This document shows, piece after piece, positions 12,400-62,422 of a DNA stretch of 64,000 nt (position 1 is its first letter; each line of letters opens with the position of its first letter). A program made the position numbers and the translations under genes. The DNA lies in the NCBI GenBank assembly GCA_016223245.1, contig JACRPL010000006.1, positions 21,417 to 85,416 on the forward strand. Reading direction: 5' to 3'. Origin of the DNA: Candidatus Saganbacteria bacterium. GTDB taxonomy: Bacteria > Margulisbacteria > WOR-1 > XYC2-FULL-46-14 > XYC2-FULL-37-10. Under the pieces are notes generated by a model. It saw nothing but the letters and a program-made list of their open reading frames with translations. It ran no database searches and was not told the origin of the DNA.

Positions 12400-12409
12400 G
12401 TTCTTCTCC

Positions 12410-46825: not shown

Positions 46826-47218
46826 TCAGCTAAATGAGAATTTCTTATGGCCCAAATAACTTATAATAACATTTAGAAATATGAGCGGCACTTGTGCAAT
46901 GATAGGATTTATCCTCAAAAATTCAACAATAAGCGGCAGTAAGGCCAAGTTAACAACTATTGAGAATCCATAAACAAAATAAAACCTCATATATTCCTTA
47001 AGATACTTTCCTTTAGTTTTGAAAACGAATATTTTATAGCTTATGTAAGCGTTAGTGATACTGGCAATATTGCTTATAATGAAAAGAATAAGATAGTGCA
47101 TCTTTTCGGAGAATAGCCGGTACAGCAAAATAAATGCCAAATATCCAAATATCGTATTCCAGATCCCTGCCAAGAGGTAATTGATCTTTTCTTTATGGGT
47201 ATGGAAAAAAAGCCTCAT
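46826..47218 (-). CDS. GtrA-family small membrane protein, putative flippase for a lipid-linked sugar.
   Basis: 130 aa, four TM helices, GtrA-like. Directly upstream of a DPM1-like GT2. Confidence 0.6.
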   Translation of the reverse strand: MRLFFHTHKEKINYLLAGIWNTIFGYLAFILLYRLFSEKMHYLILFIISNIASITNAYISYKIFVFKTKGKYLKEYMRFYFVYGFSIVVNLALLPLIVEFLRINPIIAQVPLIFLNVIISYLGHKKFSFS

Positions 47219-47219
47219 C

Positions 47220-48152
47220 CTAGAAATTTATTCTTTCTTTTTCAATGACCAGAGGCCTTTTTAAGACTTGCGTATGAATGGAACCTATATATTCTCCGAT
47301 GATGCCGATGAAAAACAATTGTACGGCTGAAAAGAAAAAGACCCCGATGACCAATGGCGCAATCCCTACATTGAAATTATCCCAAAAGATGATCTTATAG
47401 ATAAAATATCCAATTGCCACAAGAATGCTGATTATTGAAACAAGGAAGCCGAGCATTGTCGCAAGCCTTAGAGGAACCCTTGAATGGTTTGTGATCCCAA
47501 GCATCGCCATGTCGTAAAGAGTGTAAAAATTATTTTTTGTGATGCCATGATCACGTTTCGGCTGGATATATTCAATTATAGCGATTTCAAAGCCTAAATC
47601 ACTAATGAGCCCTCTAAAATATGGATATGGGTCATTAAGCGAGCGTAAAATATCCATTACTTTTTTATCGTACAATCCGAATCCGGTAAAATTCCGTATC
47701 TGCTTAACTTCCGACAAGCTTTCGATAATCTTATAAAATAATTGTCTAATGCTGAACATAAACTTGGATTCTTTGCTTGCCTTCTTGACGCCAATTACCA
47801 CTTTAAACCCATCTTCCCATTTTTTTGCAAAATCCTTTATCATTTCTGGCGGGTCTTGAAGATCTGCAACAATTGAAATCACAGCATCTCCATGAGCCTG
47901 CAGAAGCGCATGGTAAGGCGATCTTATATGTCCGAAGTTGCGCGTATTTACGATGATCTTAACATTCTTGTCGGTTTTTGCGATATCTTTGAGAATTGCG
48001 ACCGTTCTATCACTAGAAGCATTGTCGATAAATATATGTTCGTATCGGTAATCTTTTAAATCGGATTGGAAAATATTTTTTACGGCAGAATATATCGCCT
48101 CGATATTTTTTTCTTCGTTGAAACACGCAGTGACTACGCTGATTAATTTCAC
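47220..48152 (-). CDS. GT2 polyprenyl-phosphate glycosyltransferase (DPM1/GtrB-like).
   Basis: MKLISVVTACFNEEKNI...DADLQDPPEMI with DxD-type motifs, plus a C-terminal membrane anchor. Confidence 0.85.
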   Translation of the reverse strand: MKLISVVTACFNEEKNIEAIYSAVKNIFQSDLKDYRYEHIFIDNASSDRTVAILKDIAKTDKNVKIIVNTRNFGHIRSPYHALLQAHGDAVISIVADLQDPPEMIKDFAKKWEDGFKVVIGVKKASKESKFMFSIRQLFYKIIESLSEVKQIRNFTGFGLYDKKVMDILRSLNDPYPYFRGLISDLGFEIAIIEYIQPKRDHGITKNNFYTLYDMAMLGITNHSRVPLRLATMLGFLVSIISILVAIGYFIYKIIFWDNFNVGIAPLVIGVFFFSAVQLFFIGIIGEYIGSIHTQVLKRPLVIEKERINF

Positions 48153-49213
48153 AATATAGCCTCCAATGCTTTTATGGCTTCAATTTTCGCAAGATCGTTA
48201 ACTTGTATCATCTTATGGTTTTCTTGCATCATTACAAGCGACAATCCTTCGCCTGTTCTTTTCTTATCCTTTTTCATGGCAGAGACTATTGCATTATGGT
48301 CGATCTTTAAGTCATTTAGATCGATCTTGACCACTGGAAGTAGAGCATTTTTAGATAAATCCTCCGATAACGTCATTGACATTAGGCCTCGATCGATAGC
48401 TACATGATTAGCTAACATTATACCAAGAACAACAGCTTGCCCATGAGGTATCTTATAATCTGTTGCGGTTTCCAATGCATGTCCGAAACAATGCCCAAAG
48501 TTCAGGATGTTCCTGCGGCCTTTATCAAATTCATCAGTTTCAATATATATTTTTTTTATTAATAGAGCCTCTCTGGTCATTTTACCGATTGTTATCAAAT
48601 CGCGTTCAAGTAACGGGCTCATTTTGGATTTGAGTTCAATTGTTTTACCGGTACCGCCGATCAAGAAGAGTTTAACCAACTCCCCGATCCCGCTTAAATA
48701 ATCGATATCAGTTAGTGTTGCCAAAAATTCAGGAATTATATATATCTCGGATGGGGGGTAAAAAGTTCCCAAAAGATTTTTGAATCCTTTATAGTTCAAT
48801 GAAGTTTTTGCCCCAATACAACTGTCGCATTGAGATAGCATGGTTGTAGGGAAAAAGATCCAATTAATTCCCCGATATATGATTGAAGCCGCAAATCCGG
48901 CAATATCCTGAAGAATACCCCCGCCTATAACAGCTAAAACAGTGTTTTTCTTTGAAGAGCGTTCAATTAAACTATCGACCAATATTTGAACGCCCTCAAA
49001 TGTTTTTTTATCTTCGCCTACTTCAAAAATAACCGCTTTTGAAGCGTCGATCTTTGAAAGCATGCTTTTATTATGTCGTTCCCAAACTTTTTTATCTATT
49101 ATGAAAAATGCTTCGTTCAATTCTGATATCTTGTCCAGTAGGTCTTTTGGAAATAAAAAATCTACGGTATAATCATTTAGTTTTGACTTGATCGAGAGAC
49201 CATCTATTGGCAT
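48149..49213 (-). CDS. 3-dehydroquinate synthase-like (sugar-phosphate cyclase superfamily) enzyme.
   Basis: GGG..D NAD motif (VIGGGILQD) and metal-binding His motifs (...NFGHCFGHALE...HGQAV). 354 aa. Confidence 0.8.
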   Translation of the reverse strand: MPIDGLSIKSKLNDYTVDFLFPKDLLDKISELNEAFFIIDKKVWERHNKSMLSKIDASKAVIFEVGEDKKTFEGVQILVDSLIERSSKKNTVLAVIGGGILQDIAGFAASIIYRGINWIFFPTTMLSQCDSCIGAKTSLNYKGFKNLLGTFYPPSEIYIIPEFLATLTDIDYLSGIGELVKLFLIGGTGKTIELKSKMSPLLERDLITIGKMTREALLIKKIYIETDEFDKGRRNILNFGHCFGHALETATDYKIPHGQAVVLGIMLANHVAIDRGLMSMTLSEDLSKNALLPVVKIDLNDLKIDHNAIVSAMKKDKKRTGEGLSLVMMQENHKMIQVNDLAKIEAIKALEAIL

Positions 49214-49863
49214 GTATAACCGCCGTCAATAATGATATTTTGGCCTGTAATATAAGTGTTTTTGTCCGAACAAAGAAAACAGACCAAATGTGCGATTTCA
49301 TCGATATTTGCTAAGCGACCAAGAGGGATCAGCTTTTTTATTGAAGCTATCTGTTCTTCGGAATTGTTTTGCCTGGTTAACGAAGTTTCAACAAATCCCG
49401 GAGATACGGAATTTACTAAAATACCCCTTTCCCCAAGTTCGATCGCAAGCGTTCTTGTCAATGCATTAAGTCCAGCCTTTGTCGCGGCATATACCCCTCT
49501 TCCGGGCTTTGAAACCTCACTCCAAATTGAACTAATATTAACGATGCGTCCTTTTCCCATCATAGGCACGATGCCCCTGATCAATCGTATTGGTGATGAC
49601 AAGTTTATTTTTATAGTCTCGTCGAGATCCTTATCGTCAATTTCAGAAATATTGCCGATTGGATTTATTCCCGCATTATTTACAAGAACATCAATTGATC
49701 CGGTTAATAAGGATATATAGTTAGCAACCGAAGAATTATCCGCAAGGTCCAATTCTTTTCGAGTCGGCGCAAGCACTGCAAAACCTTCTTTTTTTAAAAG
49801 ATCGGCAATTGCTTTGCCAATACCTCGCGACCCTCCGGTTACAAGCGCTTTTTTTCCGGTCAT
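49204..49863 (-). CDS. Short-chain dehydrogenase/reductase.
   Basis: TGGSRGIGKAIA glycine motif, NNAG, and a Y...K catalytic motif (YAATKAG). Confidence 0.8.
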   Translation of the reverse strand: MTGKKALVTGGSRGIGKAIADLLKKEGFAVLAPTRKELDLADNSSVANYISLLTGSIDVLVNNAGINPIGNISEIDDKDLDETIKINLSSPIRLIRGIVPMMGKGRIVNISSIWSEVSKPGRGVYAATKAGLNALTRTLAIELGERGILVNSVSPGFVETSLTRQNNSEEQIASIKKLIPLGRLANIDEIAHLVCFLCSDKNTYITGQNIIIDGGYTCQ

Positions 49864-50678
49864 TCGATGCTTCCTCCCGCGTCTTTAATTAATTTGTCGT
49901 ACCTGGATTGAAGCATTTCGATCCTAATTTTATCCTCTTCAAAGATCATGCCATAGAAATCGCGTTTGTTTTTCAACCACATAAGCTCGAAACCCACAGC
50001 CTTAAGTATCCCCTTATCCGCATTATCGTTTAAGGCTTCAGGGCATTTAAATATGACTTTGCGTGTTTCATATCTATCGAGCGCTCCGGTAGGTAGCTTT
50101 TTGAAAAATGGAAGTGACGCAGCTGAAACGCCTCCGCCAATAACACATTCAAGTTTTTTTTGTTTTGATTTAAGAAGCAATTCTTTTGCAACGTCGAATA
50201 TTTTATCTGAATTAATATCTTCACGGGTTAAACCCATAGACCCAGTCATATCAACTCGTCCTAATACTATGCCATCAAGTTCGGAAATGTTTGGAAGCTT
50301 GAGCATTTCGTCAAAATTATTGGAGCCTGTAATTGTTTCAATATTAATTAATAAAGAAACCCCATCTCTTTCATCTTTTGGGAATGCCAATTTTGCAGCT
50401 TGCAAATATTTCTTTAATGCATATTGCGATTCGATCATTGGAGCGACTATGCGAGCCACTCCTATCGATCTTGAGTCATACATATCTTTTATCGCTTCGC
50501 ACCCGCCTATTTTAATCGTAAGATCAAGGCCTGCTTTTGATATAACTTCTTTTAAACGCAAAGCTTCTTCGAGCCTGGTACCCTCTGCCTCAAATTCAGC
50601 CTTTATTCCAATGACGTGATGGTTTTCCTTAAGGTCCAAAAGGACCGAAACCATTTTTTTCTCTAAATTATTCATCAT
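49860..50678 (-). CDS. HpcH/HpaI-family aldolase or citrate-lyase-beta-like protein.
   Basis: TIM-barrel pyruvate-aldolase-like motifs (...GIVLGRVDMTGSMG...). 272 aa. Confidence 0.7.
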   Translation of the reverse strand: MMNNLEKKMVSVLLDLKENHHVIGIKAEFEAEGTRLEEALRLKEVISKAGLDLTIKIGGCEAIKDMYDSRSIGVARIVAPMIESQYALKKYLQAAKLAFPKDERDGVSLLINIETITGSNNFDEMLKLPNISELDGIVLGRVDMTGSMGLTREDINSDKIFDVAKELLLKSKQKKLECVIGGGVSAASLPFFKKLPTGALDRYETRKVIFKCPEALNDNADKGILKAVGFELMWLKNKRDFYGMIFEEDKIRIEMLQSRYDKLIKDAGGSIE

Positions 50679-52488
50679 TATCCTCCAATTCTTTTATCAA
50701 CATATTGCTTTTGAACTCTTCTCTTGGAAGGAACGGGAACATATCTTCCAATGGTTTTGATCTCATTTTACCGTTCTTTAGTTTAACAGAAGATAGCTTT
50801 GGTTCAAACCTGTAAGTAGGATCAAGAATGACCTCGATAACAGCTGGTCCGCGCTTATTAAGGATCGCCGCAATGTCATTCTTAAGTGATTTTTGATTTT
50901 TTATGGTAACAGCACTTATCCCGTAAGCTTTTGCAATTTTCGTAATATCCGGAAAAGTAACTCCGGTTTCCGGACAACAAGCAACTCGCCTCCCTTCAAA
51001 GAAAGAATCTTGAGTTTGTTTTATCGAGCAATAGCCCTGATTATTAAGAACAAATATCTTTATCGGAAGCTTAAGGCCTGCAACTGTTTGCAATTCCTGC
51101 ATATTCATTTGCAGACTGCCGTCGCCTGCAATACAGATAACCTCTTTTTTGTTTGCCGCAATACAAGCACCGATAGCAGCCGGCAAGTCGTATCCCATCG
51201 AGGCGCATCCCGAATTCCAGAACATCCTTTGATTTGGTTTAACAATTCCTGCTTGAAAAACCGATACACATGCCGTGCCATTTCCCGCCACAACAATTGC
51301 ATTAGATCTAAGCTGATTTGTTAGAACATCGATAAAATAATATGGGTTGATTGATTTCTTAAGTTTTTTATATTCCGGTAGTACAGTAGGATATTTCTTC
51401 TTGCGCTCTGTACACCAGATTAGCCATTCTTTGGGGATCGATATGTTTTTCCAGGCAATCGTTGTGTATAATGCCTCTAAGAAATATTTAGCATCGCAAT
51501 TTATTGCAATATCAGGTTTCAACGTAGGTTTATTAAGTTCTGTTGGATCAATATCTATTACTATCTTTTTTGCTTCTCTTGCGACAGTTTCCCAGTTATA
51601 ACTAACCTGCCTGATATTGTTCCTGGTCCCGATATATAATACCAGATCGGAGTTTTGGAGTGCAAAGTTTCCGGCTCTTGTTCCCACTGTTCCAATTCTT
51701 CCGATAAACAATGGATGATCCGAAGGAATTTGATCAAATCCATTAAAAGTTGAAAGGACAGGAATTCTTAGCTTTTCGATGACCTTTTTGAATATTTTTA
51801 GTGAGCCTGACAATCTTATCCCATGTCCTGCGACTATTACTGGTCTTTTAGCGTTTTTCAGCAATTCAATTGTTTTTGCAATCTTAGAATTTATTTCATC
51901 ATTGGCAAACTTGATCTCGTCTTCTTTTTTATCGTAGCCTGTCAAATTGTTCTCATCAACCATTGAAGACTGGACGTCAAGCGGCACATCTAACCAAACA
52001 GGCCCAGGACGGCCTGACATCGCCAAATAGAGAGCTTTTTCTAAATAGTACCTGATCTTATATGGATCTTCGACATATACTGCATATTTTGTAACCGGTT
52101 TTACAATGTCTACGATATTGATCTCCTGATCTCCTAATTGCCTTAATTTCTGATCAGGATAAGATTCAATTGTCGTTTCCCTCTTAACCTGCCCCGAAAT
52201 ATATATTACTGGAATTGAATCAAGCCATTGGCCTATCACGCCGGTCATGGTATTTGTTCCACCAGGTCCAGATGTTATGATAACGCAGCCGATCTTTCCG
52301 GAGACCCTAAAATATCCTTCTGCTCCGATCGCGGATGCTTGCTCATGATGGTTGCAAATATATCTGATTTTCTTGCTTTTGCCCACGGAATCATTTAAAT
52401 GCATAGCTCCGCCGCCTGAGATCATAAAAACGTCTTTTATCCCGTATTCTTCAAGCTTTTTTACTATGTAATCCGAAACTTTGATCAT
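50668..52488 (-). CDS. Thiamine-diphosphate-dependent enzyme of the acetolactate-synthase-large-subunit family (YerE-like).
   Basis: Three-domain ALS architecture. ThDP motif GDGSLQMNMQELQTV...NN. 606 aa. Confidence 0.85.
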   Translation of the reverse strand: MIKVSDYIVKKLEEYGIKDVFMISGGGAMHLNDSVGKSKKIRYICNHHEQASAIGAEGYFRVSGKIGCVIITSGPGGTNTMTGVIGQWLDSIPVIYISGQVKRETTIESYPDQKLRQLGDQEINIVDIVKPVTKYAVYVEDPYKIRYYLEKALYLAMSGRPGPVWLDVPLDVQSSMVDENNLTGYDKKEDEIKFANDEINSKIAKTIELLKNAKRPVIVAGHGIRLSGSLKIFKKVIEKLRIPVLSTFNGFDQIPSDHPLFIGRIGTVGTRAGNFALQNSDLVLYIGTRNNIRQVSYNWETVAREAKKIVIDIDPTELNKPTLKPDIAINCDAKYFLEALYTTIAWKNISIPKEWLIWCTERKKKYPTVLPEYKKLKKSINPYYFIDVLTNQLRSNAIVVAGNGTACVSVFQAGIVKPNQRMFWNSGCASMGYDLPAAIGACIAANKKEVICIAGDGSLQMNMQELQTVAGLKLPIKIFVLNNQGYCSIKQTQDSFFEGRRVACCPETGVTFPDITKIAKAYGISAVTIKNQKSLKNDIAAILNKRGPAVIEVILDPTYRFEPKLSSVKLKNGKMRSKPLEDMFPFLPREEFKSNMLIKELEDNDE

Positions 52489-53237
52489 ATTGATATAGTT
52501 ATCCCGTCTGTGGCGGCTATTGTATTCTTAAAGATATTTCTTACTTGTTTCTGTGCAGTTTTTCTTTCTTTAAGCGTTTGATATACTTCGGCGTCAAAAT
52601 GTGTAAGAACCAACTTCTTTGATTTTGAAACCTTTGCAATTTCTGCTGCTGTCGCGGGAGTTAAGTGCGGCCATTCGGAGTGGTCCATACCAAGCTTAAA
52701 TGCACATTCGGAGATGATAAGGTCTGATCTTTGAGCCAGCCTGATCGCATTATCGCAATACCCAGTATCGGTGATGTAACTTATTACTTTGCCCGAAAAA
52801 TTAAGCCTGTATCCATATGACGGGACAACATGCAATAATATCTTGTAGTCCTCTAAAAACGATATTTCTTTTGATCGTTTCTTTAAATCAACAATTTTAA
52901 CTTTTGTTTTAAGCAGATCAAGTGGCGCGGTATATGGCTTATTGATAAATTCATGAGCGGTCTTAACATAATTACCAGGCAGACAAAGCGAAATCCCCTG
53001 CTTAAAATTAAATTTTGCCAAAACATGAAGACCTATAACATGATCGAGATGGAAGTGGCTTATAAAAAGAAAGATCGGTTTTTTTGATCTAATATATTTA
53101 TCCAGTTTATAAATACCATTGCCAGCATCCAAAATAACGTATTCGTTAGGCGTTTCAATTAAAAGGCTTACGGTATTACCGCAATCGGTGTCATACCAAC
53201 CGTTCGTTCCCAGAAATGTGATCTTTATCTTTTGCAT
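52485..53237 (-). CDS. MBL-fold metallo-hydrolase.
   Basis: HFHLDHVIGL metal-binding motif. 250 aa. Confidence 0.75.
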   Translation of the reverse strand: MQKIKITFLGTNGWYDTDCGNTVSLLIETPNEYVILDAGNGIYKLDKYIRSKKPIFLFISHFHLDHVIGLHVLAKFNFKQGISLCLPGNYVKTAHEFINKPYTAPLDLLKTKVKIVDLKKRSKEISFLEDYKILLHVVPSYGYRLNFSGKVISYITDTGYCDNAIRLAQRSDLIISECAFKLGMDHSEWPHLTPATAAEIAKVSKSKKLVLTHFDAEVYQTLKERKTAQKQVRNIFKNTIAATDGITISI

Positions 53238-53248
53238 ATTAATCCCTT

Positions 53249-54127
53249 CTATTTATCAAAAAGCAATAGTTCTTTATCGATCTTACTCTTATTTTCAACA
53301 TACCAATCATATAATTTACGGATAGATTCTTCAATAGGCGTGAGCTTGAGGCCTTCAATCTCTGTTTTTAATCGTGAATTGTCGCCGCTGTATTCGGTCT
53401 CTTGACCTTCCTGTTGAATTTTTATCGGAAGGTCTTTTTTCGAGACTTTAAGCACGATCTTTGCAATTTCTTTTAGTTCGATAGATCTATCGGGTGCAAT
53501 ATTGTATGCTTTGTGCTTATTTGTACAAACAATGAAATGCTCAATAACTAAACATAAGTCATCAATACTAATATAATCGAATTTTCTGTTTTGCTTTATT
53601 GTGATAGGAAGATCGAATATTGTCTTGCATATCGCATTTGAGATGAATCTAATCGCATAATCCTCATATTTCCCAAAAACTCCAAAAGGCCTAAGTTCGA
53701 CAATGTTATCGGTTTTTTCTAAATACTTTGCGCAGAGATATTTTGAAAAGCCACCTTCATCATCTGGAACATTTACATCGAAATACTCTTCTTTCATTTT
53801 CGGCAGATAATGATCTATGCCATATACCAGGCCGGAGCTCAAAAAAATCATTTTCTTGAACTTTTTTTCGTTTCTTGCTATGTTGAAGAACATTCTTGTA
53901 TTTTGCTCTAATTGTTTTGAGGGATCTTTCGCGTTTCTATGTCCGGGGCGGACGGCGGAATGGACCATGATATCAATATTATTATTCTTAAAATAATTTT
54001 CTACAGCTATCGAATCAATTAAGTCTAGCTCAGCGCGTGTGGGTGATAAAATATCGTATTTTTCACCAAAATATTCGATCAAGTTCTTTCCCACAAAACC
54101 CGATCCGCCTGTAATAAGCAGTTTCAT
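53249..54127 (-). CDS. NAD(P)-dependent sugar-nucleotide reductase or epimerase, of the CDP-abequose/paratose synthase size class.
   Basis: MKLLITGGSGFVGKNL and a Y..AK catalytic motif. 292 aa. Immediately downstream of rfbH, as in enterobacterial ddh clusters. Confidence 0.75.
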   Translation of the reverse strand: MKLLITGGSGFVGKNLIEYFGEKYDILSPTRAELDLIDSIAVENYFKNNNIDIMVHSAVRPGHRNAKDPSKQLEQNTRMFFNIARNEKKFKKMIFLSSGLVYGIDHYLPKMKEEYFDVNVPDDEGGFSKYLCAKYLEKTDNIVELRPFGVFGKYEDYAIRFISNAICKTIFDLPITIKQNRKFDYISIDDLCLVIEHFIVCTNKHKAYNIAPDRSIELKEIAKIVLKVSKKDLPIKIQQEGQETEYSGDNSRLKTEIEGLKLTPIEESIRKLYDWYVENKSKIDKELLLFDK

Positions 54128-55467
54128 CGTTTTACTGCTTTTCTGATCTCATCCAACATGAAATCGATCATTTCTTTTGTCATTCCAGGATATACTCCAA
54201 CCCAAAAAGTATTATTCATGATAAGATCGGTATTTTTCAGATCGCCGACCACTCGATATCCTTTTTTATTCTTGCGCATTTCATCAAAACACGGATGCTT
54301 GGTCATATTCCCGGCAAAAAGCATCCTGGTTTGAATCCCTTTTGACTCGAGATGATGGACTATCTCATTTCTCGTAATACATGCGTCATCTTTTACGGTC
54401 AAAAGAAAACCAAACCAGCTGGGGAGAGAATTCCTTTCGGCTTTGGGAAGGATGAAAATATCATCAAGCTTTGACAGTCCATCACGAAGCATTTTCCAAT
54501 TTGCCCGCCGTGCTTTAATGAACGAGGGAAGTTTTTCCAACTGCGCGCATCCTATTGCCGCTTGCATATCAGTAACTTTTAGATTGTATCCGAAATGTGA
54601 ATATATATATTTATGGTCATATCCATACGGAAGTTCGCCTAATTGCCATTTGAAACGCTTTTTACAGGAATTATCTTGTCCGGATGGGCACCAGCAGTCC
54701 CTGCCCCAATCGCGGAATGAATTGACGATCTTATTTAGCATGGGATCATTTGTGTAAACTGCTCCGCCTTCGCCCATAGTTATTTGGTGCGCCGGGAAAA
54801 AGCTTGAAGTCGCTATATCCCCGAAAGTCCCGGTATAAGCCCATTTGCCATGAAGCTTATATTTAGAACCCAAAGAATCGCAATTATCTTCGATCGACCA
54901 AATTTTATGTTTGGAACAAAATTCTTTAACTTTCTGGATATTAAAAGGATTTCCAAGCGTATGGGCTATAATTACTGCTTTCGTTTTTTTCGACAACGCC
55001 GCTTCAAGCTGTACGCAATCAATGTTGTAGCTTGGGAGAGCGACATCAACAAATACAGGAACGGCGCCATATTGGATGATCGGTGAGATCGTTGTCGGAA
55101 ATCCTGCTGCTACCGTAATTACTTCATCGCCTTTCTTGATCCTTCTATCCCCGAGCTTTGGCGATGTGAGCGCCATAAAGGCCAATAAATTTGCGGATGA
55201 CCCCGAATTAACAAGAGAACAATATTTTACCCCGATAAATTTTGCGAAGCCTTGTTCGAATTTTTCCGCATATCTTCCCGTCGTTAGCCAAAAATCCAAA
55301 GATGAATCTATCAGATTTGAGATCTCTTTTTCATCATAAACTCGCCCGGCGTAAGGAATTTTGTCTCCAGCGGAATATTTGTGTTTCTTTTTCGATCTGT
55401 AAAAATCAATAGCCGCATTAATTGTTTTTTTTCTTAATTCCGCTTCATTTCCCATAATATCCCTCAA
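54124..55467 (-). CDS. rfbH: CDP-6-deoxy-D-xylo-4-hexulose 3-dehydrase (RfbH/DdhC, E1).
   Basis: DegT/DnrJ/EryC1 fold, at 447 aa with the RfbH-type size and N-terminal extension. Preceded by rfbF and rfbG. Confidence 0.85.
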   Translation of the reverse strand: MRDIMGNEAELRKKTINAAIDFYRSKKKHKYSAGDKIPYAGRVYDEKEISNLIDSSLDFWLTTGRYAEKFEQGFAKFIGVKYCSLVNSGSSANLLAFMALTSPKLGDRRIKKGDEVITVAAGFPTTISPIIQYGAVPVFVDVALPSYNIDCVQLEAALSKKTKAVIIAHTLGNPFNIQKVKEFCSKHKIWSIEDNCDSLGSKYKLHGKWAYTGTFGDIATSSFFPAHQITMGEGGAVYTNDPMLNKIVNSFRDWGRDCWCPSGQDNSCKKRFKWQLGELPYGYDHKYIYSHFGYNLKVTDMQAAIGCAQLEKLPSFIKARRANWKMLRDGLSKLDDIFILPKAERNSLPSWFGFLLTVKDDACITRNEIVHHLESKGIQTRMLFAGNMTKHPCFDEMRKNKKGYRVVGDLKNTDLIMNNTFWVGVYPGMTKEMIDFMLDEIRKAVKR

Positions 55468-56509
55468 TTTGCTTTAAACAAACCTCTCTGATATCTTTTC
55501 CGGCTGCATATGCTTTTGTGAAATCAATGACCATATCAAGCGCTTTTTCAAGGCCTAATTTTGGCCTCCATTTGAGCCTTGATCTGGATTTTGAGGCGTC
55601 AAGCATAAGATAATGCGCTTCATGGGGATGCTTGCCTTTTGCCATTTCATAACAAGCTCCATTTCCCCACTTTTTGCATAATTCTTTTGTAAGCCAAATA
55701 ACCGGCTTCGCGTCTTTTTTTTTGGGTCCAAAATTCCAAGCTTCGGCAAATTTGCCGGGTTTTTCGTACAATTTTCGCGCCAGCAGCAAATATCCGGTCA
55801 AAGGTTCCAATACATGCTGCCATGGCCTTACAGCTTTCGGGTTTCTTATAAGTATTTTCTCGCTTTTTGAAATTGCCCTAATAAAATCCGGAACAAGCCT
55901 GTCGCTTGCCCAATCTCCTCCGCCTATCACATTTCCGGCCCTTGCTGTTGCAATATTTAATCCGAAGGAATCCCTGTAAGACGCAGTAACTATCTCTGAA
56001 CAAGCTTTACTGCTTGAATATGGATCATATCCGCCTAGCGGGTCATTTTCTCTAAATCCCCTTGACCCTTGCCCCGATTTCCGCATCGGGGCTTGCCCCT
56101 TGTTCTCATATACTTTATCGGTCGTAATATTTATTGCTGCCTTAACGCTATTGCATGCTCTGACCGCCTCTAATAAATTCACAGTACCAAAAATATTTAT
56201 TTCATAAGTTTCGACCGGGATAACGTAAGAATCTCGGACTATGGGCTGTGCCGCCATATGGATGACTATTTCCGGTTGAGCCTTTTTAATTTCAGCTTTT
56301 ATCCGATCTTTATCCCTGATATCGGCAATGATAGATCTTACGGATTTATCTAAATTGCAAAGATCGTACAAGCATGGTTCAGTCGACGGATTTAAAGCGT
56401 AGCCCGTAATATTTGCGCCGAAATGATCTAACATCAGGCAAAGCCATGAGCCCTTAAAACCGGTATGACCTGTTATGAAGACTCTCTTATCTTTCCAAAA
56501 ATTTGTCAT
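55445..56509 (-). CDS. rfbG: CDP-glucose 4,6-dehydratase.
   Basis: MTNFWKDKRVFITGHTGFKGSWL and a YSSSKA catalytic motif. 354 aa. Confidence 0.9.
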   Translation of the reverse strand: MTNFWKDKRVFITGHTGFKGSWLCLMLDHFGANITGYALNPSTEPCLYDLCNLDKSVRSIIADIRDKDRIKAEIKKAQPEIVIHMAAQPIVRDSYVIPVETYEINIFGTVNLLEAVRACNSVKAAINITTDKVYENKGQAPMRKSGQGSRGFRENDPLGGYDPYSSSKACSEIVTASYRDSFGLNIATARAGNVIGGGDWASDRLVPDFIRAISKSEKILIRNPKAVRPWQHVLEPLTGYLLLARKLYEKPGKFAEAWNFGPKKKDAKPVIWLTKELCKKWGNGACYEMAKGKHPHEAHYLMLDASKSRSRLKWRPKLGLEKALDMVIDFTKAYAAGKDIREVCLKQIEGYYGK

Positions 56510-56515
56510 TTGACA

Positions 56516-57295
56516 TTAACCCCACACTTTCCAGGGAGCTTTGCCCGAATCCCATAAACTTTCGAGTATTTTCTTTTCCCTCAATGTGTCCATCGGCTGC
56601 CAGAAACCCGTATGTTTATAAGACATAAGCTGTCCATCTTTTGTGATATTCCGAACAGTATCCTCCTCAAAAGGTATGATCTCGTCCTTTATATAATCCA
56701 GGACTTTGGGTTCCAGGACAAAAAATCCGCCATTGATCCACGAAGTATTGCCTTCCGCTTTCTCCTGGAATTTGTAAACCCGATTATCGTCTTTTATGTT
56801 CAATGCTCCAAACCGCCCAATAGGCCTTACGGCGGTCACGGTTGCAAGCTTGCCGTGGGTTTTATGGAAATTTACCAATGCTTTGATATCAATATCCCCA
56901 ACGCCATCTCCATAGGTAAGCATAAAAGCCTTATTGTCCAAATATTTTCCGGCCCTTTTTATCCTTCCCGCGGTCGAAGTCTCGATCCCGGTATCAACAA
57001 GCGTCACTCGCCATGGTTCTGCCGTATTAGTTTGGATAATTGTTTTTTGGGAGCCTGAACTGAAATCGAAAGTAACGTCGGATTCATGCAAAAAGTAATT
57101 GGCAAAATATTCTTTTATCTGATAGCCCTTGTAACCCAAACATACGACGAAATCGTTGAACCCAAAATGGGAATAAAGCTTCATGATATGCCAAAGGATA
57201 GGCTTGTCGCCTATTTCAAGCATTGGTTTTGGCTTCAATGACGATTCTTCGCCAATTCTTGTCCCTAAACCTCCCGCAAGGATCATTACCTTCAT
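56516..57295 (-). CDS. rfbF: Glucose-1-phosphate cytidylyltransferase.
   Basis: MKVMILAGGLGTRIGEESSLKPKPMLEIGDKPILWHIM... is near-canonical RfbF. 259 aa. Confidence 0.9.
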   Translation of the reverse strand: MKVMILAGGLGTRIGEESSLKPKPMLEIGDKPILWHIMKLYSHFGFNDFVVCLGYKGYQIKEYFANYFLHESDVTFDFSSGSQKTIIQTNTAEPWRVTLVDTGIETSTAGRIKRAGKYLDNKAFMLTYGDGVGDIDIKALVNFHKTHGKLATVTAVRPIGRFGALNIKDDNRVYKFQEKAEGNTSWINGGFFVLEPKVLDYIKDEIIPFEEDTVRNITKDGQLMSYKHTGFWQPMDTLREKKILESLWDSGKAPWKVWG

Positions 57296-57319
57296 ATTGT
57301 TTCCTCCATTATAGATATT

Positions 57320-58816
57320 TTATCCGATTTTTTCATACAAAGATACTGTTATCCTATATGAGCCCTTCTTGTGCCTATTTATCGGCAATTTTGAAACTAA
57401 AGTGCTTTCGTAGGGGACGAATTTCCGGATCATTTTCAGCCGATAATTATTACCTAGGCTAAGTTTTATGCTTTCAATATATCCTTTCGGGAAAACCCGC
57501 TCATCGACAATATTTGTTATGAGCCAGATCCTTTTGGCTATCAATTCGGAAGGCTTTAGGAGCGCATGTCCATTTACAAGCGAAACCATTTCGTAATCAC
57601 CCGGAAGATAATACTTTAAGATATTATATGTAATATGCCTATTTGTTGCGGCAATTAGATCGCCTTTTAAATGTTCTTTTTCTATTATTTGAGAGACTTC
57701 CCTCCATGGCTCGATCTGGTTTGAATTATGGTATTCATTAAATGTGAAATAATTGGCGATCGAAATACTTTGAAATAAAAGGATCAGCCCAAATAAAATA
57801 TAGAAAATGACCGGATTTTTTATACGCGACAGGGAAATCCCAAGCAAGGCAATATAAAATGGCAATGTAAAGATGAGGTATTTTGGCATTGTCGACGGTA
57901 AAATAGATGCTATAACTATAGGCATTACAAGAAATATCATCATGTACACGTTTTTTTCATCTTTCGATCCAATGAATTGAAATATCAACAAGGATCCAAT
58001 AATTATTAACGATGGAATTACAATAATGTTCCAAGGTGCGACCGTCTCACCCAAGGCAAGCACAAAGAAGATCAATGGCAATTTTAATGTTGGGGGGAAC
58101 GTGGAAAACGCCATATCCGGGGTCCCGGAAATAACGGCCATGGCCGCATGAATGATGATCTTAAAATAAAGAGGGAAAATTAGAATTGAAACAATAAGCA
58201 AAAAGCCAAGCGCTAAACGAGAGTTGGCATCTTTTTTTCTTAGGTAAATGATCGCGCAAAGTACAAATTGGCTAAATATCATCAATGCCGAATAAATTTG
58301 GGTCAAACCTAACAGCAAAGTGCATAAAATGAAAACAATTGAGGCTTTAATTGTCACTTGCTTGTACAACAACCTAAAGAGCGACCAGGCCGATAAAATA
58401 GATAACAATAGCATTAGCCCATACAACCTAATTTCGTGAGAATGCATAATGGCCAATGGTGAAAAAGCTAAAAGGCCGGCACAAACTAAGGCGGCCCTAT
58501 CGCTTATTGTATCTTTTACGAAAAGGTACATAGCTATCATAGAAAATATGCCAATGATAACTGAAAGCATGCGCAACCCGTATTCAGTAGGTCCGAAAAC
58601 TTTTATCCATAAAAACAATATCGCAAAATATGCCGGAAGATGGGATTCGATTGCCAATGCCTTGATATCAAAATGGCCGGATACGGAATAAATACTATGC
58701 GCTTCATCACCCCAAAGGCTTCGGAATATCGGGTCATAGATCCTGATAAAAGAGCCCAATAACAGGATAAATAAGAAGATCATGAATATTCTGTTTGCTT
58801 TAATCGCCGAAAACAT
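57320..58816 (-). CDS. GT-C fold membrane glycosyltransferase (GT39/ArnT/PMT-like).
   Basis: Polytopic, with a DE motif in the first periplasmic loop (SLWGDEAHS). 498 aa. Confidence 0.6.
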   Translation of the reverse strand: MFSAIKANRIFMIFLFILLLGSFIRIYDPIFRSLWGDEAHSIYSVSGHFDIKALAIESHLPAYFAILFLWIKVFGPTEYGLRMLSVIIGIFSMIAMYLFVKDTISDRAALVCAGLLAFSPLAIMHSHEIRLYGLMLLLSILSAWSLFRLLYKQVTIKASIVFILCTLLLGLTQIYSALMIFSQFVLCAIIYLRKKDANSRLALGFLLIVSILIFPLYFKIIIHAAMAVISGTPDMAFSTFPPTLKLPLIFFVLALGETVAPWNIIVIPSLIIIGSLLIFQFIGSKDEKNVYMMIFLVMPIVIASILPSTMPKYLIFTLPFYIALLGISLSRIKNPVIFYILFGLILLFQSISIANYFTFNEYHNSNQIEPWREVSQIIEKEHLKGDLIAATNRHITYNILKYYLPGDYEMVSLVNGHALLKPSELIAKRIWLITNIVDERVFPKGYIESIKLSLGNNYRLKMIRKFVPYESTLVSKLPINRHKKGSYRITVSLYEKIG

Positions 58817-61857: not shown

Positions 61858-62422
61858 ATATAAATGGGCTCTTATAATCCTTGAGGTTTTGCAGCTTAGC
61901 ATCGCGCTCGGACACGATCGGTTTATTGTTTGGCCAGGGGACCCCCGCGCTGGACCAATGTATACCCCCATCATTTGCGGGTGAATGCTTAAAACTTGTC
62001 TTATAGAGCAGGATTGCCTCGCTGCTTAAAACATAAAACCCATGGGCCACTCCAGCGGGGAGGTAGAGCAAATGGCTTACTTTTGCGCTAAGTTCAAAAG
62101 TTTCATGCTGGCCGAATGTTTCCGATCCGATCCTTAGGTCAACGATCGCATCAAATACCTCGCCGAACAAACAACAAACGATCTTGGAATAAGCCGCCGG
62201 CGGTGTCTGGAAATGCATTCCCCTTAAAACGCCTTTGCTTGATTTTGAATAAAAATCCTCCGCAAAACATGTTGGCAGCTTATGCGTTAGAAACTGTTCT
62301 TCCTCGAAGAACTTGACCAAACTTCCGCGCGCGTCGAGATGTATTATTGGTTCAATTTCATAACATCCCGCAATTTTAGTTTTTTTTATTTTCATTGGTT
62401 TCTCCTCCATATGTATCGCCAA
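61844..62422 (-). CDS. RmlC-like cupin sugar-nucleotide 3,5(5)-epimerase.
   Basis: dTDP-4-dehydrorhamnose-3,5-epimerase fold motifs (...KGVLRGMHFQ...YSKIV.C..G...D...D.R..S.TFG...). 192 aa. Confidence 0.75.
   Translation of the reverse strand: MAIHMEEKPMKIKKTKIAGCYEIEPIIHLDARGSLVKFFEEEQFLTHKLPTCFAEDFYSKSSKGVLRGMHFQTPPAAYSKIVCCLFGEVFDAIVDLRIGSETFGQHETFELSAKVSHLLYLPAGVAHGFYVLSSEAILLYKTSFKHSPANDGGIHWSSAGVPWPNNKPIVSERDAKLQNLKDYKSPFIYEKI

What the first reader, a model, noticed from the sequence alone, without database searches (positions are those of the whole stretch)
50668..57295. rfbF-rfbG-rfbH plus an acetolactate-synthase-like ThDP enzyme: predicted C-branched 3,6-dideoxyhexose (yersiniose-like).
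In Yersinia pseudotuberculosis the yersiniose A pathway uses DdhA, DdhB and DdhC. The ThDP flavoenzyme YerE then adds a pyruvate-derived two-carbon branch to the 4-keto group of CDP-3,6-dideoxy-4-ketoglucose, and YerF reduces it. Here a 606-aa ALS-family ThDP protein (ThDP motif GDGSLQMNMQELQTV...NN) lies 2 genes downstream of rfbH in the same operon, with SDR reductases adjacent. No E3 (DdhD/AscD ferredoxin-reductase-type [2Fe-2S] protein) is recognisable inside the window.
Basis: partly seen in the sequence, partly recalled or inferred. Interest (0 to 1): 0.7.

Follow-up and report, generated by a model that had tools for sequence, protein, structure and literature searches.

The report
Gene cluster for a branched-chain CDP-sugar
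This stretch of a Saganbacteria genome encodes enzymes for an unusual carbon-branched deoxysugar for the cell surface.

Summary
rfbF, rfbG and rfbH (E1, with catalytic His and all four Fe-S cysteines) are followed by an SDR, an MBL-fold protein and a 606-aa ThDP enzyme, in one tightly packed minus-strand array. No E3 is in the window.

The ThDP enzyme is not an acetolactate synthase. It falls below every NCBIfam ALS cut-off, and its best solved relatives are the ketone-accepting YerE-like enzymes JanthE and PpYerE. It groups with them in an NJ tree (99-100% bootstrap).

The "yersiniose-like, pyruvate-derived C2 branch" reading is probably too simple.

In 45 well-flanked related loci from many phyla:
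- 43 carry a keto-acid-forming enzyme, either HpcH-like or NeuB-like, never both.
- 37 carry rfb genes.
- The DHQS-like enzyme and a HAD phosphatase never co-occur.

Best reading: a CDP-3,6-dideoxyhexose with a longer C-4 side chain built from an in-cluster 2-keto-3-deoxy acid, then delivered via polyprenyl phosphate. This is a new variant of a known kind. The product structure and the DHQS-like step remain unknown.

The parts
57320..58816 (-). GT-C-type membrane glycosyltransferase (PMT_2 family, 498 aa). Candidate periplasmic transferase that moves the lipid-linked sugar to its final acceptor.
   Evidence: Pfam PF13231, 34.9 bits against a cut-off of 26.1. It lies directly upstream of rfbF with a 24-nt gap. 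A PMT_2 gene also follows the ThDP gene in L003. The role is inferred.
56516..57295 (-). rfbF/ddhA, glucose-1-phosphate cytidylyltransferase (259 aa).
   Evidence: TIGR02623 equivalog, 408 bits against a cut-off of 300. 59% identical to the equivalent gene in the JanthE locus.
55445..56509 (-). rfbG/ddhB, CDP-glucose 4,6-dehydratase (354 aa).
   Evidence: TIGR02622 equivalog, 458 bits against a cut-off of 278.
54124..55467 (-). rfbH/ddhC (E1), CDP-6-deoxy-L-threo-D-glycero-4-hexulose 3-dehydrase. The likely ATG start is at 55455 (443 aa).
   Evidence: NF011936, 736 bits against a cut-off of 423. E 1.6e-155 to the Yersinia E1 structure 3BCX, with His220 and Cys193/251/253/261 aligned and conserved.
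53249..54127 (-). 292-aa extended SDR with GxxGxxG and YxxxK motifs. Candidate reductase of the branch carbonyl (YerF-like role).
   Evidence: Pfam Epimerase, 7.8e-21. It lies directly upstream of the ThDP gene in most related loci (50 of 84). It is mutually exclusive with a 357-aa SDR (0 loci with both; Fisher p 3e-8). The role is inferred from position only.
52485..53237 (-). 250-aa metallo-beta-lactamase-fold hydrolase (RNase Z / phosphodiesterase-like). An accessory gene.
   Evidence: Pfam Lactamase_B_2, 5.5e-14. Weak RNase Z and phosphodiesterase NCBIfam hits, all below cut-off. Present in only 7 of 84 related loci.
50668..52488 (-). 606-aa ThDP-dependent carboligase of the YerE-like / JanthE-like clade. 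Proposed C-4 branching enzyme.
   Evidence: Three ThDP domains. Below all ALS cut-offs. Best PDB hits are 8RPH JanthE (4e-126) and 5AHK PpYerE (6e-84). Shares JanthE's C-terminal tail (PKL...PLED..P..PR), which AHAS lacks. Tree. 82% of well-flanked homologous loci carry rfb genes.
49860..50678 (-). 271/272-aa divergent HpcH/HpaI-type (class II pyruvate aldolase-like) protein. Proposed maker of the 2-keto-3-deoxy acid donor.
   Evidence: Pfam PF03328, 31.4 bits against a cut-off of 25. AF2 model pLDDT 91.7. Best folds are HpcH/HpaI aldolases 3QZ6, 7ET9, 4B5W and 2VWS, TM about 0.58 at 12-14% identity. E114 and D143 align with the Glu and Asp in the YfaU/HpaI motifs; I recall these as the metal ligands. 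73-85% identical across phyla. Present in 59 of 84 loci and never together with NeuB-like.
49204..49863 (-). 219-aa classical SDR, always paired with the DHQS-like gene.
   Evidence: Pfam adh_short_C2, 4e-55. No NCBIfam model reaches its cut-off. Co-occurs with the DHQS-like gene (37 and 35 of 84 loci).
48149..49213 (-). 354-aa 3-dehydroquinate-synthase-like NAD/metal enzyme (sugar-phosphate phospholyase type).
   Evidence: TIGR04425, 398.9 bits against a cut-off of 400. aroB TIGR01357, 249.9 against 305. Best PDB hit is DHQS 5HVN, 1.7e-46, with the catalytic motifs aligned. 13 DHQS motif residues are at least 34/35 conserved in the family. Never co-occurs with the HAD265 phosphatase.
47220..48152 (-). 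310-aa GT2 polyprenyl-phosphate glycosyltransferase (GtrB/ArnC/PgfS-like) with two C-terminal transmembrane helices.
   Evidence: Pfam Glycos_transf_2. Best NCBIfam hits are PgfS and ArnC, both below cut-off. 56-75% identical homologs lie about 4 kb downstream of the ThDP gene in 30 of 45 well-flanked loci. The hydrophobic C-terminus is read.
46826..47218 (-). 130-aa GtrA-family membrane protein (putative flippase partner).
   Evidence: Pfam PF04138, 68.3 bits against a cut-off of 26.1. A GtrA-type gene is present in 14 of 45 well-flanked loci.

Best explanation
The finding is the upstream half of a 12-gene module (46826-58816, minus strand). I propose that this module makes a CDP-activated, C-4 carbon-branched 3,6-dideoxyhexose and delivers it to the cell surface.

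Acceptor arm (assignments shown by family membership):
1. RfbF activates glucose-1-phosphate with CTP.
2. RfbG makes CDP-4-keto-6-deoxyglucose.
3. E1 (RfbH) removes the 3-OH, giving CDP-4-keto-3,6-dideoxyglucose. No cluster-encoded E3 is present, so the electrons must come from a reductase encoded elsewhere (inferred).

Donor arm (inferred from comparative genomics):
1. The HpcH-like aldolase condenses pyruvate with a phosphorylated aldehyde, giving a 2-keto-3-deoxy acid phosphate (DAHP-like).
2. The DHQS-like enzyme and the 219-aa SDR then remove the phosphate by NAD-dependent elimination and reduction. Other lineages use a HAD phosphatase at this point.

Branching (inferred from homology to YerE-like enzymes and from context):
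1. The ThDP enzyme decarboxylates the keto acid and adds the acyl anion to the C-4 ketone.
2. The 292-aa SDR reduces the new side-chain carbonyl.

The product would be an erwiniose/caryophyllose-type sugar with a side chain longer than the C2 of yersiniose.

Delivery (inferred): the GtrB-like GT2 transfers the sugar to polyprenyl phosphate, GtrA helps flip it, and a GT-C enzyme (PMT_2) attaches it to an extracytoplasmic acceptor.
For: Family assignments:
- RfbF, RfbG and RfbH all score above their equivalog cut-offs.
- E1 keeps its catalytic His and the four Fe-S cysteines.

The ThDP enzyme is YerE-like:
- PDB ranking puts JanthE and PpYerE first.
- It shares JanthE's C-terminal tail.
- The NJ tree gives 99-100% support for grouping with JanthE and PpYerE.
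- It fails all ALS cut-offs.
- JanthE's own locus reads rfbF-rfbG-rfbH-JanthE-SDR-acetaldehyde dehydrogenase-DmpG-type aldolase. This is the published architecture for acyl-branched sugars (PMC9306805).

Context in 45 related loci with at least 7 kb on both sides:
- 37 carry rfb genes.
- 43 carry HpcH-like or NeuB-like.
- 39 carry SDR292 or SDR357.
- 30 carry the GtrB-like GT2.
- 36 carry a phosphate-handling enzyme.

Mutual exclusions across 84 loci:
- HpcH-like against NeuB-like: 59 / 15 / 0 with both (Fisher p 2e-10).
- DHQS-like against HAD265: 35 / 17 / 0 with both (p 4e-5).
- SDR292 against SDR357: 50 / 16 / 0 with both (p 3e-8).

These exclusions suggest interchangeable parts for three roles: making the keto acid, removing a phosphate, and reducing the branch.

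Further support:
- Two loci pair NeuB-like with DHQS-like + SDR219. NeuB-family enzymes are known to condense PEP with an aldose, so the DHQS-like enzyme most likely acts on the condensation product.
- The HpcH-like model has an HpcH/HpaI fold, and the Glu and Asp of the aldolase motifs are conserved.
- The DHQS-like enzyme keeps all 13 DHQS motif residues checked. From recalled DHQS structural work these include metal, phosphate and carboxylate contacts, which fits a DAHP-like substrate.
Against: - No biochemistry or glycan structure exists for any member of this cassette.
- If the DHQS-like enzyme performs the full DHQS reaction on a DAHP-like acid, it destroys the 2-oxo acid that the ThDP enzyme needs. 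The proposed non-cyclising role has no precedent that I know of.
- JanthE accepts pyruvate as well as longer donors (PMC12188165), so a C2 branch is not excluded.
- The window enzyme is only 37% identical to JanthE and 32% to PpYerE, about the same as to plant AHAS at 33%. The clade assignment therefore rests on the HMMER ranking and an NJ tree with few references.
- The HpcH-like protein is only 12-14% identical to any characterised aldolase.
- GtrB/ArnC-type enzymes are known with UDP-sugars, and use of a CDP-sugar is assumed here.
- Eight of 45 well-flanked loci have no rfb gene within 10 kb.
- Loci were chosen by similarity to the ThDP enzyme and share ancestry, so the Fisher p-values overstate independence.
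Confidence: 0.55

Rival explanations
1. Yersiniose-type pathway. The ThDP enzyme uses pyruvate to add an acetyl group at C-4, and an SDR reduces it to 1-hydroxyethyl. The aldolase, DHQS-like enzyme and SDR219 would serve another product, or would extend the acetyl branch afterwards.
For: The rfbFGH + ThDP + SDR core is exactly the YerE/YerF logic (PMC9306805). The nearest characterised enzyme, JanthE, accepts pyruvate among other donors (PMC12188165). Two of 45 well-flanked loci have the ThDP gene without any keto-acid-forming gene.
Against: 43 of 45 well-flanked loci carry HpcH-like or NeuB-like next to the ThDP gene, never both. The aldolase gene overlaps the ThDP gene. In published precedents, clusters with an aldolase make longer branches, and ErwE rejects pyruvate (PMC9306805). 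NeuB-type enzymes use PEP as the nucleophile, so in those loci the condensation cannot be an extension of an acetyl branch.
Confidence: 0.12
2. Carbocycle-forming variant. The DHQS-like enzyme really cyclises. It would act either on the phosphorylated side chain after ThDP ligation or on a DAHP-like intermediate. The final sugar would then carry a cyclitol-type ring at C-4, or a carbocyclic sugar of the caryose or bradyrhizose kind would result.
For: All 13 DHQS motif residues checked are conserved in 34-35 of 35 family members. The closest NCBIfam model is named a cyclising phospholyase (TIGR04425). As far as I recall, every characterised member of this superfamily cyclises, and the DHQS enol intermediate cyclises readily. 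NeuB-like + DHQS-like + SDR in L005 and L029 mimics DAHP synthase / DHQ synthase / dehydrogenase.
Against: Cyclisation of a free DAHP-like acid removes the 2-oxo group needed by the ThDP enzyme. The DHQS-like enzyme is replaced by a simple HAD phosphatase in 17 loci whose ThDP enzymes are orthologous. This suggests the essential job is phosphate removal, not ring formation. No C-4 cyclitol-bearing sugar is known to me.
Confidence: 0.2
3. The ThDP protein is an ordinary acetolactate/acetohydroxyacid synthase, or another primary-metabolism ThDP enzyme, that merely lies beside sugar genes.
For: The best NCBIfam model by score is TIGR00118, biosynthetic ALS large subunit (404.5 bits). Many database records name homologs 'acetolactate synthase large subunit'.
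Against: The score is below the cut-off of every ALS model. There is no small regulatory subunit and no ilv context in the window. The tree separates it from IlvB, IlvI and plant AHAS. The C-terminal tail is shared with JanthE and absent from AHAS. Gene context is conserved with rfb genes across phyla.
Confidence: 0.02
4. The ThDP / aldolase / DHQS-like / SDR cassette makes a free small molecule (for example a cyclitol or a keto-acid derivative). That molecule would be attached to the glycan by other chemistry, and the CDP-dideoxyhexose would be a separate, unbranched sugar reduced by the 292-aa SDR (a paratose or abequose-type product).
For: The 292-aa SDR directly follows rfbH, where CDP-paratose or CDP-abequose synthases sit in Salmonella-type clusters (recalled). 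Eight of 45 loci have the cassette with no rfb gene within 10 kb.
Against: The 292-aa SDR tracks the ThDP gene, not rfbH. It stays directly upstream of the ThDP gene even where rfbH is absent or distant. No conserved transferase for a non-sugar moiety accompanies the cassette. The ThDP enzyme's closest characterised relatives accept ketones (PMC12247030).
Confidence: 0.06

Closest known systems
Yersiniose A pathway of Yersinia pseudotuberculosis (DdhA-D, YerE, YerF)
   Same: A CDP-glucose route to CDP-4-keto-3,6-dideoxyglucose (RfbF, RfbG, E1), followed by an ALS-family ThDP enzyme and an NAD(P)H reductase.
   Different: No E3 (DdhD/AscD) is encoded here. An aldolase-like gene, a DHQS-like gene and a second SDR are coupled to the ThDP gene, which points to a donor other than pyruvate. 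Sequence comparison with YerE itself could not be made.
Erwiniose, caryophyllose and gastriose clusters (ErwE/ErwI/ErwJ; MMAR_2331/2332; MyGE/MygI). This is the 'unifying scheme' of Steitz et al. 2022 (PMC9306805).
   Same: An aldolase-made 2-keto acid serves as ThDP donor, CDP-4-keto-3,6-dideoxyglucose as acceptor, and a reductase follows. MMAR_2331 is likewise described as aldolase/citrate-lyase family.
   Different: The aldolase here is a very divergent, highly conserved HpcH-like family. It comes with a DHQS-like enzyme and an SDR, which the papers I could read do not mention. The sugar appears to be exported via polyprenyl phosphate rather than by a direct Leloir transferase. Homology to MMAR_2331 was not tested because no sequence was available.
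JanthE from Janthinobacterium sp. HH01 (PDB 8RPH)
   Same: It is the closest solved relative: E 4e-126, 37% identity, aligned over residues 2-596 including the C-terminal tail. Its native locus is also rfbF-rfbG-rfbH-ThDP plus an aldolase.
   Different: JanthE has a CDG motif, whereas this enzyme has the canonical GDG ThDP motif. JanthE's locus uses a DmpG/BphI-type aldolase with an acetaldehyde dehydrogenase, and has no DHQS-like or GtrB-like gene. Its physiological substrates are reported as unknown (PMC12188165).
Three-component Gtr/Arn-type periplasmic glycosylation (GtrA, GtrB, GtrC; ArnC, ArnT)
   Same: A GT2 with C-terminal transmembrane helices resembling GtrB, ArnC and PgfS, a GtrA-family protein, and a GT-C (PMT_2) enzyme in the same array.
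   Different: The donor would be a CDP-linked branched dideoxyhexose rather than UDP-glucose or UDP-Ara4FN. The acceptor is unknown. No model reaches an equivalog cut-off.
3-Dehydroquinate synthase and the sugar-phosphate cyclases (AroB, DOIS, EEVS; NCBIfam TIGR04425)
   Same: The same fold family, with all DHQS motif residues checked conserved.
   Different: It scores below the aroB cut-off and 1 bit below the TIGR04425 cut-off. It is embedded in a nucleotide-sugar cluster and is interchangeable with a HAD phosphatase in related loci. Its substrate and whether it cyclises are unknown.

Membership tests
CDP-3,6-dideoxyhexose (Ddh/Rfb) pathway | Glucose-1-phosphate cytidylyltransferase (RfbF/DdhA) | tested here: met
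   TIGR02623 equivalog, 408 bits against a cut-off of 300.
CDP-3,6-dideoxyhexose (Ddh/Rfb) pathway | CDP-glucose 4,6-dehydratase (RfbG/DdhB) | tested here: met
   TIGR02622 equivalog, 458 bits against a cut-off of 278.
CDP-3,6-dideoxyhexose (Ddh/Rfb) pathway | E1 3-dehydrase with the active-site His that replaces the PLP lysine, and the [2Fe-2S] cysteines | tested here: met
   NF011936, 736 bits against a cut-off of 423. His220 and Cys193/251/253/261 of Yersinia E1 (3BCX) are all conserved in the alignment.
CDP-3,6-dideoxyhexose (Ddh/Rfb) pathway | Dedicated E3 reductase (DdhD/AscD: ferredoxin domain plus FNR domain) encoded alongside | tested here: not met
   No such ORF in the 64-kb window. 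None was found by motif scan within 10 kb of the ThDP gene in 84 related loci. Nine related loci have an FNR-only reductase after rfbH. The rest of the genome could not be searched.
Acetolactate / acetohydroxyacid synthase large subunit | Score above a curated ALS family cut-off | tested here: not met
   TIGR00118, 404.5 against 538. All other ALS models score 285-361 against cut-offs of 738-1084.
Acetolactate / acetohydroxyacid synthase large subunit | Adjacent small regulatory subunit (IlvN/IlvH) or ilv operon context | tested here: not met
   The neighbours are an MBL-fold protein and an HpcH-like protein. No ilv genes were found among the scanned window ORFs.
Acetolactate / acetohydroxyacid synthase large subunit | Phylogenetic grouping with IlvB, IlvI and plant AHAS | tested here: not met
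   In the NJ tree, the window family + JanthE + PpYerE get 99% bootstrap, and the AHAS group is separate at 92.5%.
YerE-like ketone-accepting ThDP carboligases | Three ThDP-enzyme domains and the GDG...NN cofactor motif | tested here: met
   PF02776, PF00205 and PF02775 are all above cut-off. The motif was read.
YerE-like ketone-accepting ThDP carboligases | Closer to characterised YerE-like enzymes than to other ThDP enzymes | tested here: met
   JanthE 425 bits and PpYerE 286 bits, against the best AHAS at 272 bits. Tree. Caveats: the margin over AHAS is small for PpYerE, and YpYerE, ErwE and MMAR_2332 were not available.
YerE-like ketone-accepting ThDP carboligases | Encoded with the genes that make the CDP-4-keto-deoxyhexose acceptor | tested here: met
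   Same array as rfbFGH in the window. 37 of 45 well-flanked homologous loci have rfb genes. JanthE's locus does as well.
YerE-like ketone-accepting ThDP carboligases | Carboligation of a 2-oxo acid onto a ketone (a CDP-4-ketosugar) | not testable with these tools
   This needs an enzyme assay.
HpcH/HpaI class II pyruvate aldolases | Family profile match and TIM-barrel fold | tested here: met
   PF03328, 31.4 bits against a cut-off of 25. AF2 model pLDDT 91.7. The top Foldseek hits are HpcH/HpaI aldolases, E 1e-8, TM about 0.58.
HpcH/HpaI class II pyruvate aldolases | Metal-binding Glu and Asp, and the catalytic Arg | tested here: inconclusive
   E114 and D143 are invariant in 21 homologs. They align with the Glu and Asp in the YfaU/HpaI motifs '..vqvEs..' and '..iGpaDls..', which I recall as the metal ligands. 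The equivalent of the catalytic Arg could not be assigned at 12-14% identity.
3-Dehydroquinate synthase / TIGR04425 sugar-phosphate phospholyases | Score above the family cut-off | tested here: inconclusive
   TIGR04425, 398.9 against 400. Four orthologs score 391.6-403.5. aroB TIGR01357 scores 249.9 against 305, so aroB membership is not met.
3-Dehydroquinate synthase / TIGR04425 sugar-phosphate phospholyases | Conserved active-site motif residues of DHQS | tested here: met
   The motifs align with Francisella DHQS 5HVN.
Gtr/Arn-type polyprenyl-phosphate glycosylation systems | GtrB/ArnC-like GT2, GtrA-family protein and GT-C transferase encoded together | tested here: met
   PF00535 with best NCBIfam hits PgfS and ArnC. 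PF04138 scores 68.3 against 26.1, and PF13231 scores 34.9 against 26.1. All lie in one array. The function itself is not tested.

The most novel reading that the evidence does not exclude
The DHQS-like enzyme performs a true phosphate-elimination and aldol cyclisation on the side chain. The cassette would then make a nucleotide-activated deoxyhexose carrying a carbocyclic (cyclitol-like) substituent at C-4. That class of bacterial surface sugar has not been described, and the cassette occurs in many, mostly uncultured, phyla.
Probability: 0.2. Interest if true: 0.8.

Novelty: new variant of a known kind. Interest (0 to 1): 0.55.

Why it matters
C-branched deoxysugars are rare determinants of bacterial surface antigens. 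Their ThDP branching enzymes are also sought as biocatalysts for making chiral tertiary alcohols.

This window shows that one such pathway is a modular cassette. Its parts are acceptor synthesis, keto-acid donor synthesis, branching plus reduction, and lipid-linked export. Homologs of the ThDP enzyme and of the aldolase number in the thousands. The cassette occurs in Margulisbacteria, Elusimicrobia, Bacteroidota, Nitrospirota, Desulfobacterota, Spirochaetota, candidate-phyla-radiation bacteria and some cultured Firmicutes.

The interchangeable parts give directly testable predictions about the donor substrate:
- HpcH-like or NeuB-like for making the keto acid.
- DHQS-like + SDR or a HAD phosphatase for removing a phosphate.

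They also point to a possible new role for a dehydroquinate-synthase-type enzyme in nucleotide-sugar tailoring.

JanthE's physiological substrate is reported as unknown. Its native erwiniose-type context, seen here, suggests what that substrate may be.

Tried and rejected
- **E3 search.** I looked for an E3 by motif (C-x4-C-x2-C...C with RxYS and GxGxxP) in the window and in 84 loci, and found none. The motif filter would miss non-canonical reductases. An FNR-only 237-aa reductase turned up later through ORF clustering, but it has no homolog in the window.
- **Reference sequences.** I tried to obtain YpYerE, ErwE and MMAR_2332 from the supplement of PMC9306805, but no supplement is held. The 2024 in-silico survey of more than 200 YerE-like clusters (doi 10.1002/anie.202403535) is not held either. 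I therefore could not check whether this exact cassette is already catalogued there.
- **Literature searches.** Searches linking YerE with dehydroquinate synthase, and the search on bradyrhizose biosynthesis, gave nothing relevant. Two queries failed on term syntax.
- **Phylogeny.** A first bootstrap run with Biopython's BLOSUM calculator timed out. I replaced it with a Kimura-distance NJ tree.
- **Promoter and terminator scan** of 44-64 kb. Promoter-like sites were at the chance level, and all terminator-like sites lay inside genes, so it was not informative.
- **ALS reading.** Considered and rejected, as set out among the rival explanations.
- **292-aa SDR as a CDP-paratose or abequose synthase.** Considered less likely, because this SDR tracks the ThDP gene rather than rfbH.

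Full report
**1. What is in the sequence**

The region is part of a 20-kb array of co-directional minus-strand genes running from 63744 to 43325. The genes overlap or are separated by at most about 25 nt.

| Coordinates | Assignment | Evidence |
|---|---|---|
| 56516-57295 | glucose-1-phosphate cytidylyltransferase | TIGR02623, 408 bits vs cut-off 300 |
| 55445-56509 | CDP-glucose 4,6-dehydratase | TIGR02622, 458 vs 278 |
| 54124-55467 | E1 / RfbH | NF011936, 736 vs 423 |
| 53249-54127 | 292-aa extended SDR | Pfam Epimerase |
| 52485-53237 | 250-aa MBL-fold protein | Pfam Lactamase_B_2 |
| 50668-52488 | 606-aa protein with three ThDP-enzyme domains | Pfam; motif GDGSLQMNMQELQTV...NN read |

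The exact ThDP protein is on record from a Candidatus Saganbacteria assembly.

**2. E1 and E3**

Aligned with Yersinia E1 (PDB 3BCX, E 1.6e-155), the window protein keeps His220. It also keeps Cys193, Cys251, Cys253 and Cys261. From established work on E1, these are the residues that define the PMP/[2Fe-2S] 3-dehydrase.

No E3 is present in the window:
- No ORF combines a plant-type ferredoxin motif with FNR motifs.
- None of the 40 ORFs scanned with Pfam has Fer2 or FNR domains.

The same motif scan found no E3 within 10 kb of the ThDP gene in any of 84 related loci. Nine related loci do carry a 237-aa FNR-only reductase directly after rfbH (NAD_binding_1 / FAD_binding_8). The window has no homolog of it.

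The electron donor for E1 is therefore unknown. I recall, but did not check here, that the E1 homolog SpnQ works with general ferredoxin or flavodoxin reductase systems.

**3. The ThDP enzyme**

It is not an acetolactate synthase by the curated tests:
- Every ALS model scores below its cut-off (best TIGR00118, 404.5 against 538).
- No small regulatory subunit lies next to it.

Its best solved relatives are 8RPH (E 4e-126) and 5AHK (6e-84), ahead of plant AHAS at about 1e-79. 8RPH is JanthE, a YerE-like ketone-accepting carboligase from Janthinobacterium (PMC12188165, PMC12247030). I recall 5AHK as PpYerE. The review PMC12247030 confirms that a PpYerE structure exists, but the PDB code was not checked here.

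The alignment with JanthE runs over residues 2-596. It includes a C-terminal tail (PKL...PLED..P..PR) at which the AHAS alignment stops.

| Reference | Identity to window enzyme |
|---|---|
| JanthE | 36.9% |
| PpYerE | 31.6% |
| plant AHAS | 33.0% |
| E. coli IlvB | 30.4% |

The NJ tree used 24 sequences, 597 columns and 200 bootstraps, with Gcl as outgroup:
- Window family: 97%.
- Window family + JanthE: 100%.
- Window family + JanthE + PpYerE: 99%.
- IlvB / IlvI / plant AHAS as a separate group: 92.5%.

Limits of this tree: there are few references. The three PDB sequences were rebuilt from the HMMER alignments. YerE of Yersinia, ErwE and MMAR_2332 could not be obtained.

**4.

Downstream of the ThDP gene, and overlapping it, lie five more genes:
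- **A 271-aa HpcH/HpaI-like protein (49860-50678).** Pfam gives 31.4 bits against a cut-off of 25. The AF2 model has pLDDT 91.7. The best structural matches are HpcH/HpaI class II aldolases, with TM about 0.58 at 12-14% identity. E114 and D143 align with the Glu and Asp in the YfaU/HpaI motifs; I recall these as the metal ligands.
- **A 219-aa classical SDR (49204-49863).**
- **A 354-aa dehydroquinate-synthase-like enzyme (48149-49213).** It scores 398.9 on TIGR04425 against a cut-off of 400, and 249.9 on aroB against 305. The DHQS motifs are aligned and conserved.
- **A GtrB/ArnC/PgfS-like GT2 with a hydrophobic C-terminus (47220-48152).**
- **A GtrA-family protein (46826-47218)**.

Directly upstream of rfbF lies a PMT_2-type GT-C enzyme (57320-58816).

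**5. Comparative genomics**

Homologs of the ThDP enzyme at 50-68% identity occur in very many lineages, mostly MAGs. I fetched 80 loci from species-representative genomes and three more from encoding contigs. I searched them with the window proteins. I then clustered all their ORFs without reference to the window.

Counts among the 45 loci with at least 7 kb on both sides:

| Feature | Loci of 45 |
|---|---|
| rfbF, rfbG or rfbH | 37 |
| rfbH | 31 |
| HpcH-like or NeuB-like | 43 |
| 292-aa or 357-aa extended SDR | 39 |
| GtrB-like GT2 | 30 |
| DHQS-like, HAD or MBL enzyme | 36 |
| DHQS-like | 22 |

The usual gene order is SDR292, ThDP, HpcH-like, SDR219, DHQS-like, GT2.

Three pairs of gene families are mutually exclusive over all 84 loci:

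| Pair | Counts (first / second / both) | Fisher p |
|---|---|---|
| HpcH-like vs NeuB-like | 59 / 15 / 0 | 2e-10 |
| DHQS-like vs 265-aa HAD-IIA phosphatase | 35 / 17 / 0 | 4e-5 |
| SDR292 vs SDR357 | 50 / 16 / 0 | 3e-8 |

Additional patterns:
- HAD265 accompanies HpcH-like in 16 of its 17 loci.
- A second HAD (223 aa) accompanies NeuB-like in 8 of its 10 loci.
- Two loci pair NeuB-like with DHQS-like + SDR219.
- Family identities were checked with Pfam and NCBIfam.

The p-values ignore shared ancestry and should be read as descriptive only.

JanthE's native locus reads rfbF, rfbG, rfbH, JanthE, SDR, acetaldehyde dehydrogenase, DmpG/HMGL-type aldolase, SDR, GT. Its rfb proteins are 53-59% identical to those of the window. 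That is the erwiniose-type architecture described by Steitz et al. (PMC9306805).

**6. Interpretation**

Published work shows that YerE adds a pyruvate-derived C2 unit to CDP-4-keto-3,6-dideoxyglucose. It also shows that related enzymes encoded next to aldolases (ErwE, MMAR_2332, MyGE) use longer, hydroxylated 2-keto acids. ErwE rejects pyruvate (PMC9306805). More than 200 YerE-like clusters have been predicted, mostly with unknown products (PMC12247030).

The window cluster fits this class. A keto-acid-forming enzyme is almost always present and comes in interchangeable forms. This argues that the donor is made in the cluster, so the branch is longer than C2.

NeuB-family enzymes are known to condense PEP with an aldose. 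Their substitution for the aldolase implies that the condensation precedes ThDP ligation.

The alternation of the DHQS-like + SDR219 pair with a HAD phosphatase suggests the condensation product is phosphorylated. In that case the two options are alternative ways of removing the phosphate. The fully conserved DHQS motifs fit a DAHP-like substrate.

My preferred reading is that elimination followed by reduction gives a terminal-deoxy 2-keto-3-deoxy acid, and so a caryophyllose-like side chain. This step is inferred and has a real chemical objection: a complete DHQS reaction would consume the 2-oxo group. The alternative, a true cyclisation that yields a carbocyclic substituent, is kept as a rival at about 0.2.

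The SDR292 role (reduction of the branch carbonyl) and the export route (GT2 to polyprenyl phosphate, GtrA, GT-C) are inferred from conserved position and family membership only.

**7. Verdict**

This is a new variant of a known kind. The architecture of rfbFGH + YerE-like enzyme + aldolase + reductase is known. I did not find the divergent HpcH-like / DHQS-like / SDR donor module, or the Gtr-type export coupling, described in the literature I could search. I could not read the 2024 survey that may list such clusters.

No product structure can be assigned from sequence alone.

Noticed in passing
window 62392-63744 (-): A B12-binding radical SAM enzyme (450 aa) heads the 20-kb gene array. No homolog lies near the ThDP gene in any of the 45 well-flanked related loci. 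It may be a window-specific tailoring step, for example C-methylation.
   Followed up: partly
window 58800-60071 (-): A 423-aa polytopic membrane protein with no Pfam match lies between a GT2 and the PMT_2 GT-C gene. It could be a polymerase, ligase or second GT-C-like enzyme.
   Followed up: no
window 13461-15281 (-), 11299-12438 (-), 12410-13057 (-), 26699-28258 (-), 1457-2485 (-): Five sizeable ORFs (606, 379, 215, 519 and 342 aa) have no Pfam match at E 1e-5. The 606-aa ORF has the same length as the ThDP enzyme but shows no ThDP domains.
   Followed up: no
window 49860-50678 (-) and homologs P0122-P0240: The HpcH-like protein is 73-85% identical across distant phyla. That is more conserved than its ThDP neighbour (50-68%). 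It is so conserved that a spurious 145-aa antisense ORF appears 'conserved' in 27 loci.
   Followed up: partly
L040 4170-4880; L024 5268-5963: A 237-aa FNR-type reductase without a ferredoxin domain sits directly after rfbH in 9 related loci. It is a plausible stand-in for E3. The window has none.
   Followed up: partly
L090 (Janthinobacterium sp. HH01, AMWD01000002.1 4131597-4153429): JanthE's physiological substrate is reported as unknown. The gene lies in an rfbF-rfbG-rfbH-JanthE-SDR-acetaldehyde dehydrogenase-DmpG aldolase cluster. This is the same layout as the published erwiniose cluster.
   Followed up: partly
L005 6546-13609; L029: Two loci combine a NeuB-like synthase with the DHQS-like enzyme and SDR219. 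This trio formally mirrors DAHP synthase, DHQ synthase and a dehydrogenase, but sits inside a CDP-sugar cluster.
   Followed up: no
window 43325-46196 (-) and 61844-62422 (-): The same array also encodes GDP-mannose 4,6-dehydratase, an RmlD-type reductase, a further SDR and an RmlC-like epimerase. At least one more deoxysugar is probably made for the same glycan.
   Followed up: no
L026, L029, L072 (record titles): Some MAG records carrying the cassette are titled Rickettsia typhi, Rhizobium sp. Q54 and Akkermansia muciniphila. These labels look doubtful for such contigs and were not relied on.
   Followed up: no
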